Shown here piece by piece: positions 4,992 to 29,310 of a stretch of DNA of 32,000 bases (position 1 is its first letter; each line of letters opens with the position of its first letter). Below the pieces are notes generated by a model. The model did not search any database and was not told the DNA's origin. It saw only the letters and a program-made list of their open reading frames with translations. The stretch spans positions 1,244,911 through 1,276,910 of the forward strand of contig NZ_CP065424.1 of NCBI RefSeq assembly GCF_017809215.1, read 5' to 3'. The DNA comes from Heyndrickxia oleronia. GTDB taxonomy: Bacteria; Bacillota; Bacilli; Bacillales; Bacillaceae_C. The position numbers and the translations under genes were made by a program.

Positions 4992-4995
4992 TATG

Positions 4996-5026
4996 ATGCC
5001 AGGAAACTAGATCCTGGCATTTTTTT
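4996..5026 (+). terminator. rho-independent terminator
   Basis: ATGCCAGGA (4996-5004) pairs with TCCTGGCAT (5012-5020), then TTTTTT. Confidence 0.8.
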
Positions 5027-5087
5027 GTGTTCATACTATGACCTAAATGAAAGTACGAATAAGATTATAAGTTGTTTCATAAATTAT

Positions 5088-5256
5088 GTTGCTTTGGTAA
5101 CCCTCTACTTGTGGCTTTTACACTAAATCAAAGCTTCAGCGGTTCTTATGGAATTTTGCAGCTCTTTTCCTCAGTTCAAATGAAACGTGTAGCGATCCTC
5201 AGTTGATATTTATTCGTTATAATTTTACTTAATAGCAACAATGTTTGAGAAAAGAG
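5088..5256 (+). repeat. dispersed intergenic repeat, copy A
   Basis: The 26-nt core AATAGCAACAATGTTTGAGAAAAGAG (5231-5256) is identical to 27748-27773 and matches 24731-24756 at 23/26. The preceding ~140 nt align to the other copies with indels. Confidence 0.75.
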
Positions 5257-5404
5257 ACTTCTAGAAAATAGCCAAACTATATGGAGTTTAGATTCAATTT
5301 TCTATATAATCATAATTAAGTGAAAAAATTACGTTTGTTAATCATATAAAAGAATTAACAATCAAATGTAAATGAAAACTAACGGTTTTATGGGAGTGGG
5401 ATAA

Positions 5405-20103: not shown

Positions 20104-20264
20104 CACTCTTATCGTGAGCGGCGGAGGGACTAGGCCCTTTGAAGCCCGGCAACCTTCAAGCATTCGTGCTTGAAAAGGTGCTAATTCCTACAGATCAATT
20201 AGATCTGAAAGATAAGGGGAGGAACTGATATAATAAGCCCTCTTCTTATGAAGAGGGTTTTTTG
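20104..20264 (+). promoter_or_regulatory. SAM-I (S-box) riboswitch with intrinsic terminator
   Basis: CTCTTATCGTGAGCGGCGGAGGGACTAGGCCCTTTGAAGCCCGGCAACC...AAGGTGCTAATTCCTACAG...AAAGATAAGGGG matches the S-box consensus blocks. The expression platform is CCCTCTTC-TTAT-GAAGAGGG plus TTTTTTG (20238-20264). Confidence 0.9.
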
Positions 20265-20408: not shown

Positions 20409-21704
20409 ATGACAAATGAAAACTATCAACCAGAAACGTTATTACTTCATGGGGGACAGCAGCCTGATCCAACGACAGGTTCACGGGCTGTTCCGGTTTA
20501 TAAGACGACATCCTATGTTTTTAAAGATACAGATCATGCCCAAGGGTTATTTGCCCTTGAACAACCTGGCTATATTTATACAAGAATTGGCAATCCAACG
20601 GTTGATGTATTTGAGCAGCGTATTGCCCTTTTGGAAGGGGGAACAGCAGCTGTTGCACTTTCATCAGGGATGGCCGCCATTGCTTTTTCTATTTTAAATA
20701 TTGCTAGTGCAGGAGATGAAATTATCGCTGCTGGAAATCTTTATGGCGGGACTTTTAATCTCTTTGCAACGACGCTTCCTAGATATGGGATTCAAGTGAA
20801 ATTTGTTGATGCAACTGATCCGGAAAATTTTCGGGAAGCAATCACTCCGAAAACGAAAGCTCTCTTTGCAGAAATTATTGGCAATCCAAGCCTACATGTT
20901 TTAGATGTTGAGGCAGTAGCAAATGTTGCCCATGAAAACGGAATCCCGTTGATCATAGATAATACTTTCGGAACTCCATATCTTTCTAATCCAATAAAAT
21001 GGGGTGCTGATATTGTAGTTCATTCCGCTACTAAATGGATTGGCGGACATGGAACGACAATCGGCGGTGTCGTGATTGATGGTGGTAAATTTGATTGGAA
21101 TAGTGATAAATTCCCTTATTTTAAAGAGCCAGATGAAAGTTATCATGGCCTTCGATATGGTATTGATGTGCCTCAAGCAGCATTTGCCACAAAGCTTCGT
21201 GTGCAGTTATTGCGTGATTTCGGTGCTAGCTTAAGTCCTGATAGTGCATTCTTATTATTACAAGGTCTTGAAACATTACATCTACGTGTACAAAAGCATA
21301 ATGAAAATGCATTGAAGATTGCCCAGTTTTTACAAGATCATCCTGCCGTTGCTTGGGTTAATTATACAGGACTAGAGGAACATCCATCATATGAGCTTGC
21401 AACTAAATATTTCAAAGGTGGATTTGGTTCCATTGTCAACTTTGGGATTAAAGGTGGTCGGGAAGTAGGAAGAAAAGTCATCGATGAGATAAAATTATGG
21501 TCTCATGTTGCAAATGTGGGGGATGCAAAATCTTTAATTATCCATCCTGCATCTACTACCCATCAACAGCTTAATGCAGAGGATCTTAAACTAACAGGTG
21601 TAACAGAGGAACTGATTCGCCTTTCGGTCGGTTTGGAAGCAGTAGAGGATTTAACAGCAGATTTAGATCAAGCGATTGTAAAAGCAACAAGCGTCACAGT
21701 ATAG
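20409..21704 (+). CDS. metY: O-acetylhomoserine sulfhydrylase (aminocarboxypropyltransferase)
   Basis: 431 aa. [13 protein letters not shown] and the PLP site [16 protein letters not shown] are present, with the typical ~430-aa OAH/OAS sulfhydrylase length. RBS AGGAGG lies upstream. Confidence 0.88.
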
Positions 21705-24514: not shown

Positions 24515-24603
24515 TATCTAAGTATCTATTTATTTTGAAGGAGATTCAATCAGTCATACATTTCTTTACCACCTAACCGATCAATCGATATTTAATATAG
24601 ATT

Positions 24604-24756
24604 GTTGTTTTAGTAATAGCCCTCCTAGCGATATTTAAACCTAGTAAATACTTAAGCGACTTTATGGATTATACAGTGACATAGAAGGGTTAGTCTTCAA
24701 CCTATATTCATTAGTTAATGATTAACCTAAAATAGCAATAATGTTTAGGAAAAGAG
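24604..24756 (+). repeat. dispersed intergenic repeat, copy B
   Basis: Core AATAGCAATAATGTTTAGGAAAAGAG (24731-24756) matches copy A at 23/26. Upstream blocks GTTGTTTTAGTAA, CCC, CTTTATGGA and ACAG align with copies A and C. Confidence 0.7.
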
Positions 24757-24843
24757 CTTAATATAAAACTGATCATAGGTTTTATGCGAACAATCTGCTA
24801 AAATAAGAATAATAGATTGTACTTGGTAAGGTGGTGGAAGAAT

Positions 24844-27589: not shown

Positions 27590-27636
27590 AAAATTTCCCA
27601 CCTAATTAAAAATAAATAGCTGTTTTTGTGTAGTTT

Positions 27637-27773
27637 GTTGCATTTGTAAAAGCCCAACTGGTGACTTTTGCACCCAATAAAGGATTCAAGTGATTCTTAT
27701 GGAGACTACAGCTTTTTTAGTGAAACAGCCGATAGTTATTTGTAAAAAATAGCAACAATGTTTGAGAAAAGAG
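27637..27773 (+). repeat. dispersed intergenic repeat, copy C (in the ktrB-ktrA spacer, antisense to both genes)
   Basis: The core at 27748-27773 is identical to copy A. Upstream blocks GTTGCATTTGTAA, CCC, TTCTTATGGA, ACAGCTTTTTTAG, TGAAAC and GATAGTTATTTGT align to copy A. Confidence 0.75.
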
Positions 27774-27781
27774 CCAATAAA

Positions 27782-29127
27782 TTAACCAATCATAAACCTT
27801 CCTTTTGGATAACGATAGAACTCTTTGTCTTGTTTATGGGTTAAAGCGATTGCAATCGTTAATGGCCCTAAACGGCCGATAAACATTGTTAAGGCTATAA
27901 GAATTTTGCCGAATATGGAGAGATCTGGAGTAAGTCCCATTGAAAGTCCCACCGTTCCGAATGCAGATGTTGCTTCAAAAAGAATAACAAGAAAGTTGGT
28001 TTCAGCTTCAGTAATAGAAAGAATCATAGTAACAAGAATGACAACGATAAAACCAATTAACGAAACGGTAATTGCTTTATAAATCGTCGTCGGAACTAAT
28101 CGCTGACGAAAGAATACGACATCTTGTTTCCCCTTTACTTGTGACCATGCTGCACCTAATAAGGTGACGAAGGTAGTGGTTTTAATTCCTCCACCAGTTG
28201 AGCCTGGAGACGCACCGATAAACATTAGAATGATGATTAGAAATATAGAGGAATCAGATAAATCTCCAATACTTAATGTATTTGCTCCCGCTGTACGAGC
28301 TGTCACCGATTGGAAGAGTGAGGCTAATACTTTCCCAGAAAAAGATAAGGGTCCTAGCGTTTTTTGATTATAAAATTCTAACCAAAAAATAAAGATCGTT
28401 CCTAAAATGATCAGAGAGAAAGTGGTACATAGCACAACTTTGCTATGTAAAGAAAACTTTTGAAAGGATTTGTGTTCAAGAAAATCATGAACAACGATAA
28501 ATCCAATTCCGCCTAAAATGATTAAGGAGGAAATTACAAGGGTAACAACAGGGTCTTCAACATATTCAGTTAGGCTACGAAACTCACCAAATAGGTCAAA
28601 GCCGGCATTATTAAAATTAGAGATGGAATGAAATATCCCATAATAGATTGCCCTCGAAATAGGCATATCAAAGGAAAAACGAATAGATAATAGAATTGCC
28701 CCTAATCCCTCTGTTAATACAGTAAAAAGGAAGACTGTTTTTACTAACCGTACTACACCTTGCGGAGAGACAACATTCAATGCCTCTTGTAATAATAATC
28801 GCTCCTTAAGAGAAATTTTTCTCCCGATTAATAAAGCAAATAATGTCGCGAAGGTCATAAAACCAAGGCCACCAATTTGAATTAAGGATAGAATGACAAT
28901 CTGTCCAAATAATGAAAAGGTTGTTCCTGTATCTACAACAACAAGTCCGGTTACACAAGTTGCAGACGCGCAGTAAATAATGCATTTAACCAGCTAAGTC
29001 CACGATGATCCGTAGTTGAAACAGACAAGGAGAGTAGTAAAGTACCTATAAGAATAATAATGGCGAATCCAAGTATTAAAATCTTCGGGGGCGTTAGTTT
29101 TAAATTTCTATAGAGTTGATTAATCAT
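27782..29127 (-). pseudogene. ktrB: KtrB/TrkH-type K+ transporter membrane subunit, reading frame broken near nt 28967-28969
   Basis: ATG 29127 (RBS AAAGGAAGGA) opens MINQLYRNLKLTPPKILILGF...LSWLNALFTA, then runs into TAA at 28951-28953. The conserved continuation SATCVTGLVVVDTGTTFSLFGQIVILSLIQIGGLGFMTFATLF... is in another frame that joins the 358-aa ORF. A single missing base after ACT GCG would restore a ~448-aa protein. Confidence 0.8.
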
Positions 29128-29310
29128 GGTAAAATCCTTCCTTTGATCTCCATTTAGTTTAATGCAAGAAGAGGGCAATTATTCATTTGATAAAGTAATA
29201 ACTTTGCTCTTGGTCCATCGACGACCTGGAGTGGTTAAGATTTGTTTGGTAGGTTCTAAGGCTAATTACCTTCATACAATATAATGAAGGCCATTAAAGG
29301 AGAGATGTAC

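What the first reader, a model, noticed from the sequence alone, without database searches (positions are those of the whole stretch)
5088..5256. Dispersed ~140-170 nt intergenic repeat family with a near-invariant 26-nt 3' core (copy A, family description)
The core AATAGCAACAATGTTTGAGAAAAGAG (5231-5256) recurs identically at 27748-27773 and at 23/26 at 24731-24756. In all three copies the preceding 110-145 nt align with indels. Shared blocks include GTTGC(T/A)TT(G)GTAA, CCC, (T)TCTTATGGA/CTTTATGGA, ACAG and TGAAAC. Similarity stops abruptly right after the core. All copies are strictly intergenic, have the same orientation, and sit independently of flanking gene direction: two are upstream of + genes and one is antisense between two - genes. 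The 5' end can pair with the core (TGTTGC with GCAACA in A and C). In copy B both partners carry transitions that keep the helix as G-U pairs (ATTGTTGTT with AGCAATAAT). That fits either a structured RNA or MITE-like terminal inverted repeats. There is no ORF, no terminator and no obvious promoter, and I do not recognise it as any riboswitch, T-box or named Bacillus repeat. Three clear copies, and probably five, in 32 kb is a high density.
Basis: seen in the sequence. Interest (0 to 1): 0.7.

Follow-up and report, generated by a model that had tools for sequence, protein, structure and literature searches.

The report
Old MITE copies, IS1595 family
The three repeats are worn copies of a small non-coding jumping element (a MITE) that borrows the transposase of ISBsm2-type IS1595 insertion sequences, common in Bacillaceae; this is an ordinary kind of mobile DNA, not a new RNA.

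Summary
The repeat is real. The 26-nt core occurs three times on the + strand (0 expected by chance), but there are three copies, not five. The element starts about 19 nt earlier and ends 2 nt later than reported.

The window is from Heyndrickxia oleronia. Relatives from other Bacillaceae genomes and from metagenomes show a 158-192 bp non-coding element with about 28-bp terminal inverted repeats (GGCTGTTTTCGTAAAGTTTGTTG... / ...AATAGCAACAATGTTTGAGAAAAGAGCC). It is flanked by 8-bp target-site duplications: 39 of 72 inverted-repeat pairs have 8/8 identical flanks and 13 have 7/8, against 0 of 288 shifted controls.

Full-length 1.4-1.8 kb insertion sequences have the same ends and perfect 8-bp duplications, and they encode IS1595-family transposases. 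One is 100% identical to the ISBsm2 transposase of Bacillus smithii.

There is no Rfam match, no promoter or terminator, and no covariation in the terminal "helix".

Of the window copies, C keeps its duplication, while A and B are decayed relics.

This is a new member of a known kind. The one unexplained point is that the right end is much better preserved than the rest of each copy.

The parts
5069..5258 (+). MITE copy A (190 bp), decayed. The left terminal repeat remnant is about 5069-5096. The hairpin remnant is about 5097-5121. The internal copy of the repeat tip, AGCTCTTTTCCTCAG, is at 5160-5174. The right terminal repeat is 5231-5258 (27/28 to the family consensus). No target-site duplication is recognisable.
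   Evidence: It sits 48 nt after the terminator of the AsnC-type regulator gene (4995-5021) and 146 nt before the ggt-like gene.
24586..24758 (+). MITE copy B (about 173 bp by homology), the most decayed copy. The right terminal repeat is 24731-24758 (24/28). The outer 16 nt of the left repeat are not significantly similar to the family. In an alternative reading the element is 24600-24757, flanked by the direct repeat TTAATATA at 24592-24599 and 24758-24765.
   Evidence: The direct repeat has a rough chance probability of 0.01-0.07, so it is not decisive. The copy is present and 98-100% identical in six H. oleronia assemblies.
27618..27775 (+). MITE copy C (158 bp), the best preserved copy. 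The left terminal repeat AGCTGTTTTTGTGTAGTTTGTTGC starts at 27618. The hairpin is about 27645-27671. The right terminal repeat is 27748-27775 (28/28).
   Evidence: It lies between the trkH stop codon and the trkA ribosome-binding site on the minus strand.
27610..27617 (.). Left copy of the 8-bp target-site duplication of copy C (AAATAAAT).
   Evidence: Sister strains L139/L140 have AAATAAAT on the left and AAATGAAT on the right (7/8).
27776..27782 (.). Right copy of the target-site duplication of copy C (AATAAAT). One A has been lost in the window strain compared with sister strains.

Best explanation
[quoted passage not shown] It is a 158-192 bp non-coding derivative of ISBsm2-type insertion sequences of the IS1595 family, in the chromosome of Heyndrickxia oleronia.

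Anatomy, from left to right:
- a left terminal inverted repeat of about 28 bp (GGCTGTTTTCGTAAAGTTTGTTGTTTTT);
- a 9-bp-stem hairpin (GTAAAAGCC-N8-GGCTTTTAC);
- a variable interior holding a third, internal copy of the repeat tip (AGCTCTTTTCTCAG);

Mechanism. Shown: the ends match those of full-length IS1595-family elements, and insertion duplicates 8 bp of an A+T-rich target with consensus TTwnnwAA. Inferred: a DDE transposase with an N-terminal zinc ribbon, supplied in trans by a full-length ISBsm2-like element, binds the terminal repeats, moves the element, and makes cuts staggered by 8 bp in the target.

State of the window copies. They are relics. C still has its duplication. A and B have degenerate left ends and no clean duplication. 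B and C are fixed in all six strains examined; the strain loci do not reach copy A. I infer that A and B are no longer mobile and have no dedicated cellular function.
For: 1. Family and boundaries.
- The core pattern found 16 loci in Lederbergia, Robertmurraya, Rossellomorea, Mesobacillus and Bacillus genomes.
- The repeat-tip pattern found at least 120 metagenome loci.
- A 20-member alignment defines both ends.

2. Target-site duplications.
- Of 72 inverted-repeat pairs 100-320 bp apart, 39 have 8/8 identical 8-bp flanks and 13 have 7/8.
- Flanks shifted outward by 9-20 bp gave 0 of 288 with 7 or more matches.
- The duplications are 90% A+T with consensus TTwnnwAA.

3. Autonomous partners.
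- L094 102-1597 is a 1496-bp element with ends GGCTCTTTTCTAAAAAATTGTTGCTAAT and GGCTATTTTCGTATAGATTGTTGCTATA and duplication TTTTAAAA.
- Its 343-aa ORF matches PF12762 (6.5e-16) and NF033547, IS1595-family transposase (6.4e-64).
- It is 100% identical to a protein cluster named 'IS1595-like element ISBsm2 family transposase [Bacillus smithii]'.
- Six more loci from named Bacillaceae genomes (four distinct elements; two pairs are the same element at different sites) have the same ends and perfect 8-bp duplications.
- Their ends match the MITE's left repeat at up to 27/28 and the right repeat at up to 26/28.

4. Window copies.
- Copy C has a 7/8 duplication in sister strains.
- There are no ORFs above 44 aa in copy A.
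- Orientation is independent of the neighbouring genes.

5. Other support.
- Three independent short-read assemblies break exactly at the right end of copy C. That is the behaviour of a genomic repeat.
- An IS1595-related MITE of 165 bp, with 25-bp inverted repeats and an 8-bp duplication, is already recorded in Haloquadratum (PMC3852290).
Against: - No ISBsm2-like transposase gene was seen in the roughly 37 kb of H. oleronia DNA available, so a partner in this genome is not shown.
- No empty site was found among the held loci, so insertion polymorphism is not directly demonstrated.
- Copies A and B lack a clean duplication at the homology-defined ends.
- The MITE interior shows no similarity to the subterminal sequence of the full-length elements examined, so descent by internal deletion is not shown. 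Only the ends are shared.
- The right terminal repeat is far better preserved than the rest of each window copy. Simple neutral decay does not predict that.
Confidence: 0.9

Rival explanations
1. The element is a MITE, but its right terminal 28 bp is actively maintained in H. oleronia after loss of mobility. That could be through host-level use (for example a protein-binding site) or through gene conversion between copies. This is an add-on to the MITE reading, not an exclusive alternative.
For: - In the three window copies the right repeat is 23-27/28 identical pairwise. The left repeat is 15-17/28, the hairpin 14-17/26 and the interior 50% or less.
- The copies are recovered by an HMM that excludes the right repeat, so this is not pure ascertainment.
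- Copy C differs between strains by a clustered patch of 8 changes in 20 nt, against a genome background of about 1.4% divergence. That looks like a conversion tract.
Against: - Only three copies were sampled.
- Young copies elsewhere show that a badly degenerate or partly deleted left end is compatible with a perfect duplication (L007; the second L011 copy). So the asymmetry may already exist in the source elements, through selection on the element for the right end.
- Unselected copies in other genomes do lose the right repeat (L005 14/28, L038 17/28, L049 20/28).
- No shared promoter-like or operator-like motif was found.
Confidence: 0.1
2. The element is a MITE of the ISL3 family rather than of IS1595. 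ISL3 elements also have ends beginning GGCTCTT and make 8-bp duplications.
For: ISArsp7 (ISL3) has inverted repeats GGCTCTTCGCGG... and an 8-bp direct repeat (PMC6305408). A Microcystis ISL3 element and its MITE share GGCTCTTCG ends and 8-nt repeats (PMC11448079).
Against: - Every full-length element found with the extended end motif (GGCTnTTTTC..AAA..TTGTTGCT) encodes an IS1595-type transposase with a zinc ribbon.
- None of them has an ISL3-sized ORF.
- The similarity to ISL3 ends covers only the first 7 nt.
Confidence: 0.03
3. It is a structured RNA: a cis-regulatory leader or a small RNA gene that has been duplicated.
For: - A local hairpin shows compensatory changes (3 of 9 pairs).
- A helix between the internal repeat-tip copy and the right end is 89% paired, with compensatory changes at 2 of 13 pairs. 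Its covariation score is 0.118 against 0.068 in shuffles.
- Intact copies fold slightly better than shuffles (z about -2).
Against: - There is no Rfam match.
- Orientation is independent of the flanking genes, and one copy lies antisense inside an operon spacer.
- There is no shared promoter or terminator.
- The terminal helix shows fixed mismatches and covariation barely above the shuffles.
- The hairpin is destroyed in sister strains of the same species.
- Target-site duplications and the transposase partners explain the repeats fully.
- Palindromes inside MITEs can covary because they are DNA-level sites.
Confidence: 0.03
4. It is duplicated spacer DNA decaying in place, or a chance similarity.
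For: Copies A and B are heavily diverged and lack clean flanking duplications.
Against: - The core has 0 expected chance matches.
- Homologous elements with exact boundaries and 8-bp duplications occur at unrelated loci in at least five genera and in more than 100 metagenome contigs.
Confidence: 0.01

Closest known systems
ISBsm2 (IS1595 family) of Bacillus smithii, and ISBsm2-like elements of Fredinandcohnia, Cytobacillus, Metabacillus, Priestia and others
   Same: Terminal inverted repeats of the same type: GGCT(G/C/A)TTTTC..(A/T)A..TTGTTGCT, matching the MITE's ends at up to 27/28 and 26/28. The 8-bp A+T-rich target duplications are the same, and so is the host family, Bacillaceae.
   Different: The full-length elements are 1.37-1.77 kb (a disrupted one is 2.1 kb) and encode a 333-343 aa transposase, often with a small passenger ORF. 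The MITE is 158-192 bp with no coding capacity. Its interior (hairpin, internal copy of the repeat tip) is not visibly derived from theirs.
IS1595-related MITE of Haloquadratum walsbyi (putative partner ISHwa6): 165 bp, 25-bp inverted repeats, 8-bp direct repeat (PMC3852290, Table 4)
   Same: The same kind of element: a roughly 165-bp non-autonomous derivative of an IS1595-family element, with inverted repeats of about 25 bp and an 8-bp duplication.
   Different: It is from an archaeal host with a different partner element. No sequence relationship was tested.
ISL3-family elements and their MITEs (for example ISArsp7, and the Microcystis aeruginosa ISL3 MITE)
   Same: Ends begin GGCTCTT, and the duplication is 8 bp (PMC6305408, PMC11448079).
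   Different: The transposase family is different. The similarity stops after about 7 nt. No ISL3 transposase was found between ends of this type.
bcr1-bcr18 interspersed repeats of the Bacillus cereus group
   Same: They are dispersed intergenic repeats of 100-400 bp in a Bacillus relative, with features of mobile elements (PMC6542083).
   Different: The bcr elements are restricted to the B. cereus group and are associated with a TTTAT motif. This element has variable 8-bp duplications, defined terminal inverted repeats and an identified transposase family, and it occurs in other genera.

Membership tests
MITE (non-autonomous DDE-transposon derivative) | Short and without coding capacity | tested here: met
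   Elements are 158-192 bp. The longest ORF overlapping copy A is 44 aa.
MITE (non-autonomous DDE-transposon derivative) | Terminal inverted repeats | tested here: met
   Imperfect repeats of about 28 bp, 75% complementary across 20 members. In the window, C has both repeats. A and B have an intact right repeat and a degenerate left one.
MITE (non-autonomous DDE-transposon derivative) | Target-site duplication of fixed length, in the family as a whole | tested here: met
   39 of 72 pairs have 8/8 and 13 of 72 have 7/8, against 0 of 288 shifted controls with 7 or more.
MITE (non-autonomous DDE-transposon derivative) | Target-site duplication at the three window copies | tested here: inconclusive
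   C: AAATAAAT / AAATGAAT in sister strains, with a 1-nt deletion in the window strain. A: none (2/8). B: none at the homology-defined end; TTAATATA 8/8 appears if the left end is placed at 24600, which could be chance.
MITE (non-autonomous DDE-transposon derivative) | Ends shared with an autonomous insertion sequence | tested here: met
   ISBsm2-like IS1595 elements L094, L146-L148 and L150-L152 match the MITE's ends at up to 27/28 and 26/28.
MITE (non-autonomous DDE-transposon derivative) | Presence/absence polymorphism (empty sites) | tested here: inconclusive
   Reconstructed empty sites for 67 elements found no match among the held loci. Copies B and C are present in all six H. oleronia assemblies. 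The H. sporothermodurans trkH-trkA spacer is 72 nt and contains GGCTCTTTT, which may be a remnant.
IS1595 family (as the partner) | DDE transposase with an ISXO2-like catalytic domain and an N-terminal zinc ribbon | tested here: met
   The L094 ORF matches PF12762 at 6.5e-16, NF033547 at 6.4e-64 and NF050000 (zinc-binding domain) at 5.8e-13. This applies to the partner elements. The window encodes no such protein.
IS1595 family (as the partner) | 8-bp direct target repeats | tested here: met
   All seven full-length copies have perfect 8-bp flanks.
IS1595 family (as the partner) | An active partner present in the same genome (H. oleronia) | not testable with these tools
ISL3 family (as the partner) | An ISL3 transposase between ends of this type | tested here: not met
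   Every full-length element found with these ends carries an IS1595-type transposase. The other inverted-repeat pair over 1 kb apart that was inspected (L128) brackets an ordinary gene.
Rfam RNA families / structured RNA | Match to a curated covariance model | tested here: not met
   The only hit in the window is the SAM riboswitch at 20106-20218. The permissive scan of copy A gave only chance-level hits with E above 1.
Rfam RNA families / structured RNA | Covariation that supports a conserved fold | tested here: inconclusive
   Terminal helix: 75% paired, five positions mismatched in 14-18 of 20 members, covariation score 0.070 against 0.056 in shuffles. Hairpin and internal-tip/right-end helix: score 0.118 against 0.068, with a few compensatory pairs in a few lineages. 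This is compatible with DNA-level palindromes.
bcr repeats of the B. cereus group | Restricted to the B. cereus group and associated with a TTTAT motif | tested here: not met
   The element is found in Heyndrickxia, Lederbergia, Robertmurraya, Rossellomorea and Mesobacillus. Its duplications are variable 8-mers. The bcr features are taken from PMC6542083. The bcr consensus sequences were not compared.

The most novel reading that the evidence does not exclude
After losing mobility, the 28-bp right end of these elements has been kept nearly invariant in Heyndrickxia oleronia while the rest of each copy decayed. The cause would be either co-option as a dispersed protein-binding or regulatory site, or continual homogenisation by short-tract gene conversion.
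Probability: 0.1. Interest if true: 0.5.

Novelty: new member of a known kind. Interest (0 to 1): 0.22.

Why it matters
It removes a candidate 'new structured RNA' from the list and replaces it with a concrete annotation. The element is a MITE family tied to ISBsm2-type IS1595 elements, with defined ends, an 8-bp TTwnnwAA target and a wide spread in Bacillaceae and in environmental metagenomes.

Practical consequences:
- These elements break short-read assemblies. Three assemblies end exactly at copy C.
- They sit in operon spacers and 5' regions (trkH-trkA, and upstream of the ggt-like gene), where they can be mistaken for leaders or small RNAs.
- The same ends also mobilise at least two other non-autonomous cargo types.

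I found no description of this family in the searchable literature. A short note or an ISfinder entry would be justified. It does not change any concept.

Tried and rejected
- Rfam at gathering thresholds on the whole window, and at permissive thresholds on copy A. Nothing relevant.
- BLASTN of copy A against 72,556 plasmids. No match.
- My first guess was an ISL3 partner, based on GGCTCTT ends plus an 8-bp duplication, with literature support. I dropped it once the full-length elements proved to carry IS1595 transposases.
- The viral contig scan gave one uninformative hit.
- The empty-site search among held loci found nothing.
- The comparison with H. sporothermodurans for an empty trkH-trkA spacer was ambiguous. 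The spacer is shorter, but it contains a GGCTCTTTT motif.
- Promoter and terminator scans of the three copies found nothing shared.
- Literature searches for the end sequence, for 'ISBsm2', and for MITEs in Bacillaceae found no prior description.
- The L128 pair of repeat-like sequences 1.9 kb apart brackets an ordinary 368-aa gene that I did not scan; it is not an insertion sequence.

Full report
OBSERVATION. The 26-nt core AATAGCAACAATGTTTGAGAAAAGAG is present at 5231-5256 and 27748-27773 (exact) and at 24731-24756 (3 mismatches). All three are on the + strand, and none is expected in shuffled sequence. The 110-170 nt upstream of each core align with indels. An nhmmer profile of the three copies finds nothing else credible in the window; the next hit has E=0.087 and lies inside an ORF. 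A second profile that excludes the core also recovers only these three. So there are three copies, not five. They are intergenic:
- Copy A lies between an AsnC-type regulator gene, whose terminator is at 4995-5021, and a gamma-glutamyltranspeptidase gene.
- Copy B lies between a CtpB-like S41 protease gene and a PDZ-protein gene.
- Copy C lies between trkA and trkH on the minus strand.

ORGANISM. Exact look-ups of two window proteins name Heyndrickxia oleronia. Six other assemblies of the species carry copies B and C at the same places.

NOT A KNOWN RNA. Rfam at gathering thresholds finds only a SAM riboswitch at 20106-20218. A permissive scan of copy A gives only chance-level hits.

RELATIVES ELSEWHERE, AND THE TRUE BOUNDARIES. 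An exact scan of one genome per species with the core returned 16 loci in Lederbergia (three species), Robertmurraya, Rossellomorea, Mesobacillus, a Bacillus sp. and an uncultured Bacillaceae bacterium. Reading their flanks showed three things:
It begins GGCTnTTTTC(G/T)TAAAGTTTGTTGTT.
- It ends ...AATAGCAACAATGTTTGAGAAAAGAGCC.
- The two ends are imperfect inverted repeats of about 28 bp.

A 20-member alignment (A3) gives the anatomy:
- left terminal repeat, columns 1-29;
- a hairpin, GTAAAAGCC-N8-GGCTTTTAC, columns 30-56;
- a semi-conserved block containing TTCTTATG;
- an internal third copy of the repeat tip, AGCTCTTTTCTCAG, columns 101-114;
- a variable A+T-rich stretch;
- right terminal repeat, columns 175-202.

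In window coordinates, copy A is 5069-5258, B is about 24586-24758 and C is 27618-27775.

TARGET-SITE DUPLICATIONS. A metagenome scan with the repeat-tip pattern gave at least 120 more loci. Across all loci, inverted-repeat pairs cluster at 150-200 bp (53 pairs). Of 72 testable pairs 100-320 bp apart, 39 have identical 8-bp sequences immediately outside the two ends and 13 have 7/8. When the compared 8-mers are shifted outward by 9-20 bp, none of 288 reaches 7/8. Most of the low-scoring pairs are the internal tip paired with the right end, not true element boundaries. The duplicated 8-mers are 90% A+T, with the palindromic tendency TTwnnwAA. This is the signature of transposition by a DDE transposase.

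THE AUTONOMOUS PARTNER. I first suspected ISL3, whose ends also begin GGCTCTT and which also makes 8-bp duplications (PMC6305408, PMC11448079). The data say otherwise.
- L094 102-1597 is a 1496-bp element with ends GGCTCTTTTCTAAAAAATTGTTGCTAAT and GGCTATTTTCGTATAGATTGTTGCTATA and the duplication TTTTAAAA.
- Its 343-aa ORF matches the ISXO2-like DDE domain (PF12762, 6.5e-16) and the NCBIfam IS1595-family transposase model (NF033547, 6.4e-64), and it has an N-terminal zinc-binding domain.
- The protein is 100% identical to a cluster that NCBI names 'IS1595-like element ISBsm2 family transposase [Bacillus smithii]'.
- Homologues at 60-83% identity are annotated in Priestia, Fredinandcohnia, Metabacillus, the B. 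cereus group, Cytobacillus, Peribacillus, Sporosarcina, Paenibacillus and Alicyclobacillus.
- I fetched six further loci from named genomes, holding four distinct elements: L146, L147, one element at two sites (L148 and L150) and one at two sites (L151 and L152). Each is 1.37-1.77 kb, has ends of the same type and has a perfect 8-bp duplication. One element at two different sites is itself evidence of mobility.
- The ends of these elements match the MITE's left consensus at up to 27/28 (the L147 end away from the transposase gene) and the right consensus at up to 26/28 (the equivalent L146 end).
- Two more partial or cargo-bearing relatives are in L082 and L025.

MITES OF THIS FAMILY ARE A KNOWN KIND. 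A 165-bp MITE with 25-bp inverted repeats and an 8-bp duplication, tied to an IS1595-family element, is listed for Haloquadratum walsbyi (PMC3852290). I found no paper that mentions ISBsm2, this end sequence, or a MITE of this type in Bacillaceae. ISfinder could not be searched.

STATE OF THE WINDOW COPIES.
- Copy C has both terminal repeats (the left tip of 23 nt at 19/23; the right repeat 28/28). In sister strains its duplication reads AAATAAAT / AAATGAAT. The window strain has lost one A from the right copy. C sits between the trkH stop codon and the trkA ribosome-binding site.
- Copy A has a right repeat at 27/28, a left repeat at only 18/28, and no duplication (2/8).
- Copy B is the most decayed. 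The outer 16 nt of its left repeat are not significantly similar to the family. If its left end is placed at 24600, it is flanked by TTAATATA on both sides. With the offsets tried, that could be chance at roughly 0.01-0.07.
- A fourth, internally shortened copy lies 4.4 kb beyond the window's right end (L138 20280-20361).
- Three independent short-read assemblies end exactly at the right end of copy C. That is what a multi-copy repeat does to an assembler.

THE STRUCTURED-RNA RIVAL.
- Pair counts on A3 show that the left/right terminal 'helix' is 75% paired. It has five positions mismatched in 14-18 of 20 members, and its covariation is barely above the shuffles (score 0.070 against 0.056; 6 pairs with a change on both sides against 5.4 expected). 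That is the behaviour of asymmetric transposase-binding sites, not of a stem.
- The local hairpin, and the helix between the internal tip and the right end, do show some compensatory changes. Examples are GTAAAAGCC/GGCTTTTAC becoming GGAAAAATCC/GGATTTTTCC, and TCTCA/TGAGA becoming TCCCA/TGGGA or TCTAA/TTAGA. The covariation score is 0.118 against 0.068, and no shuffle reaches it. These changes come from a few lineages.
- The hairpin is destroyed in sister strains of H. oleronia.
- Folding energies are unremarkable (z = -1.9, -2.0 and +0.4).
- No promoter or terminator is shared by the copies.
- Element orientation ignores gene orientation.

I conclude that the internal palindromes are features of the transposon. 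They may be subterminal binding sites or hairpins relevant to transposition. They are not a cellular RNA.

WHAT REMAINS UNEXPLAINED. Decay is very uneven. Among the window copies the right repeat is 23-27/28 identical pairwise. The left repeat is 15-17/28 and the interior is 50% or less. Part of the answer is probably selection on the element before insertion, combined with a tolerant left end. Two copies elsewhere have perfect duplications although the left repeat is partly deleted (L007) or badly degenerate (the second L011 copy). Gene conversion may also contribute: copy C differs between strains by a clustered patch of 8 changes in 20 nt. Unselected copies in other genomes do lose the right repeat. 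A host-level function for the right end cannot be excluded. It rests on three copies, and I give it about 10%.

LIMITS.
- No empty site was found.
- No transposase was seen in the small part of the H. oleronia genome available.
- The genome scan missed H. oleronia itself, although the pattern is exact in the window. Copy counts from that scan are therefore lower bounds.
- The interior of the MITE is not visibly derived from the full-length elements examined.

VERDICT. This is a real repeat family, correctly spotted. It is a MITE mobilised by ISBsm2-type IS1595 transposases, and the window holds three old copies. It is an ordinary kind of element, it is apparently not yet described for this group, and its interest is low to moderate.

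Noticed in passing
window 20106-20218 (+): SAM riboswitch (RF00162, 94.3 bits, E 1e-21) upstream of a Cys/Met-metabolism PLP enzyme gene at 20409-21704.
   Followed up: no
window 27782-29200 (-): The trkH/ktrB-like gene is disrupted at its N-terminus in the window strain (a 358-aa ORF, with stops upstream in frame). No gene is called in strain L138. Strains L139 and L140 have an intact 448-aa gene. It is probably a strain-specific pseudogene, next to MITE copy C.
   Followed up: partly
L004 1445-1675; L068 8058-8587 (also L024, L034, L054, L087, L099): The same terminal repeats and 8-bp duplications bound other non-autonomous elements: a 231-bp one and a class of about 520 bp. Their interior is a G+C-rich repeat module in inverted pairs, so one transposase type appears to mobilise several unrelated cargoes.
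   Followed up: partly
L012 5723-5944; L011 453-650 and 2113-2300: In Lederbergia citrisecunda a complete MITE abuts a 5'-deleted copy. The deletion joins the left tip to the internal tip copy. In Robertmurraya two MITEs bracket an htrA-like protease gene downstream of a sensor kinase gene.
   Followed up: no
L148/L150 1420-3184; L082 2453-4589; L094 195-485: Full-length ISBsm2-like elements carry passenger ORFs: a DinB-family protein, a methyltransferase, and a small membrane protein.
   Followed up: no
L141-L143 (contig ends, equal to window 27775/27776): Three independent short-read assemblies of H. oleronia terminate exactly at the right end of MITE copy C. This is a repeat-induced assembly break.
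   Followed up: partly
L138 20280-20361: A fourth, internally shortened copy (right repeat 26/28) lies between bacA and a ferredoxin gene, 4.4 kb beyond the window's right end.
   Followed up: partly
L144 1195-1266 (Heyndrickxia sporothermodurans): The orthologous trkH-trkA spacer is only 72 nt but contains GGCTCTTTTATTGATTCGAAAAACAACA. This may be a remnant of the same element, or an independent event.
   Followed up: partly
window 24579-24590: A short local direct repeat, cgatcaatcgat, lies just outside the left end of copy B.
   Followed up: no
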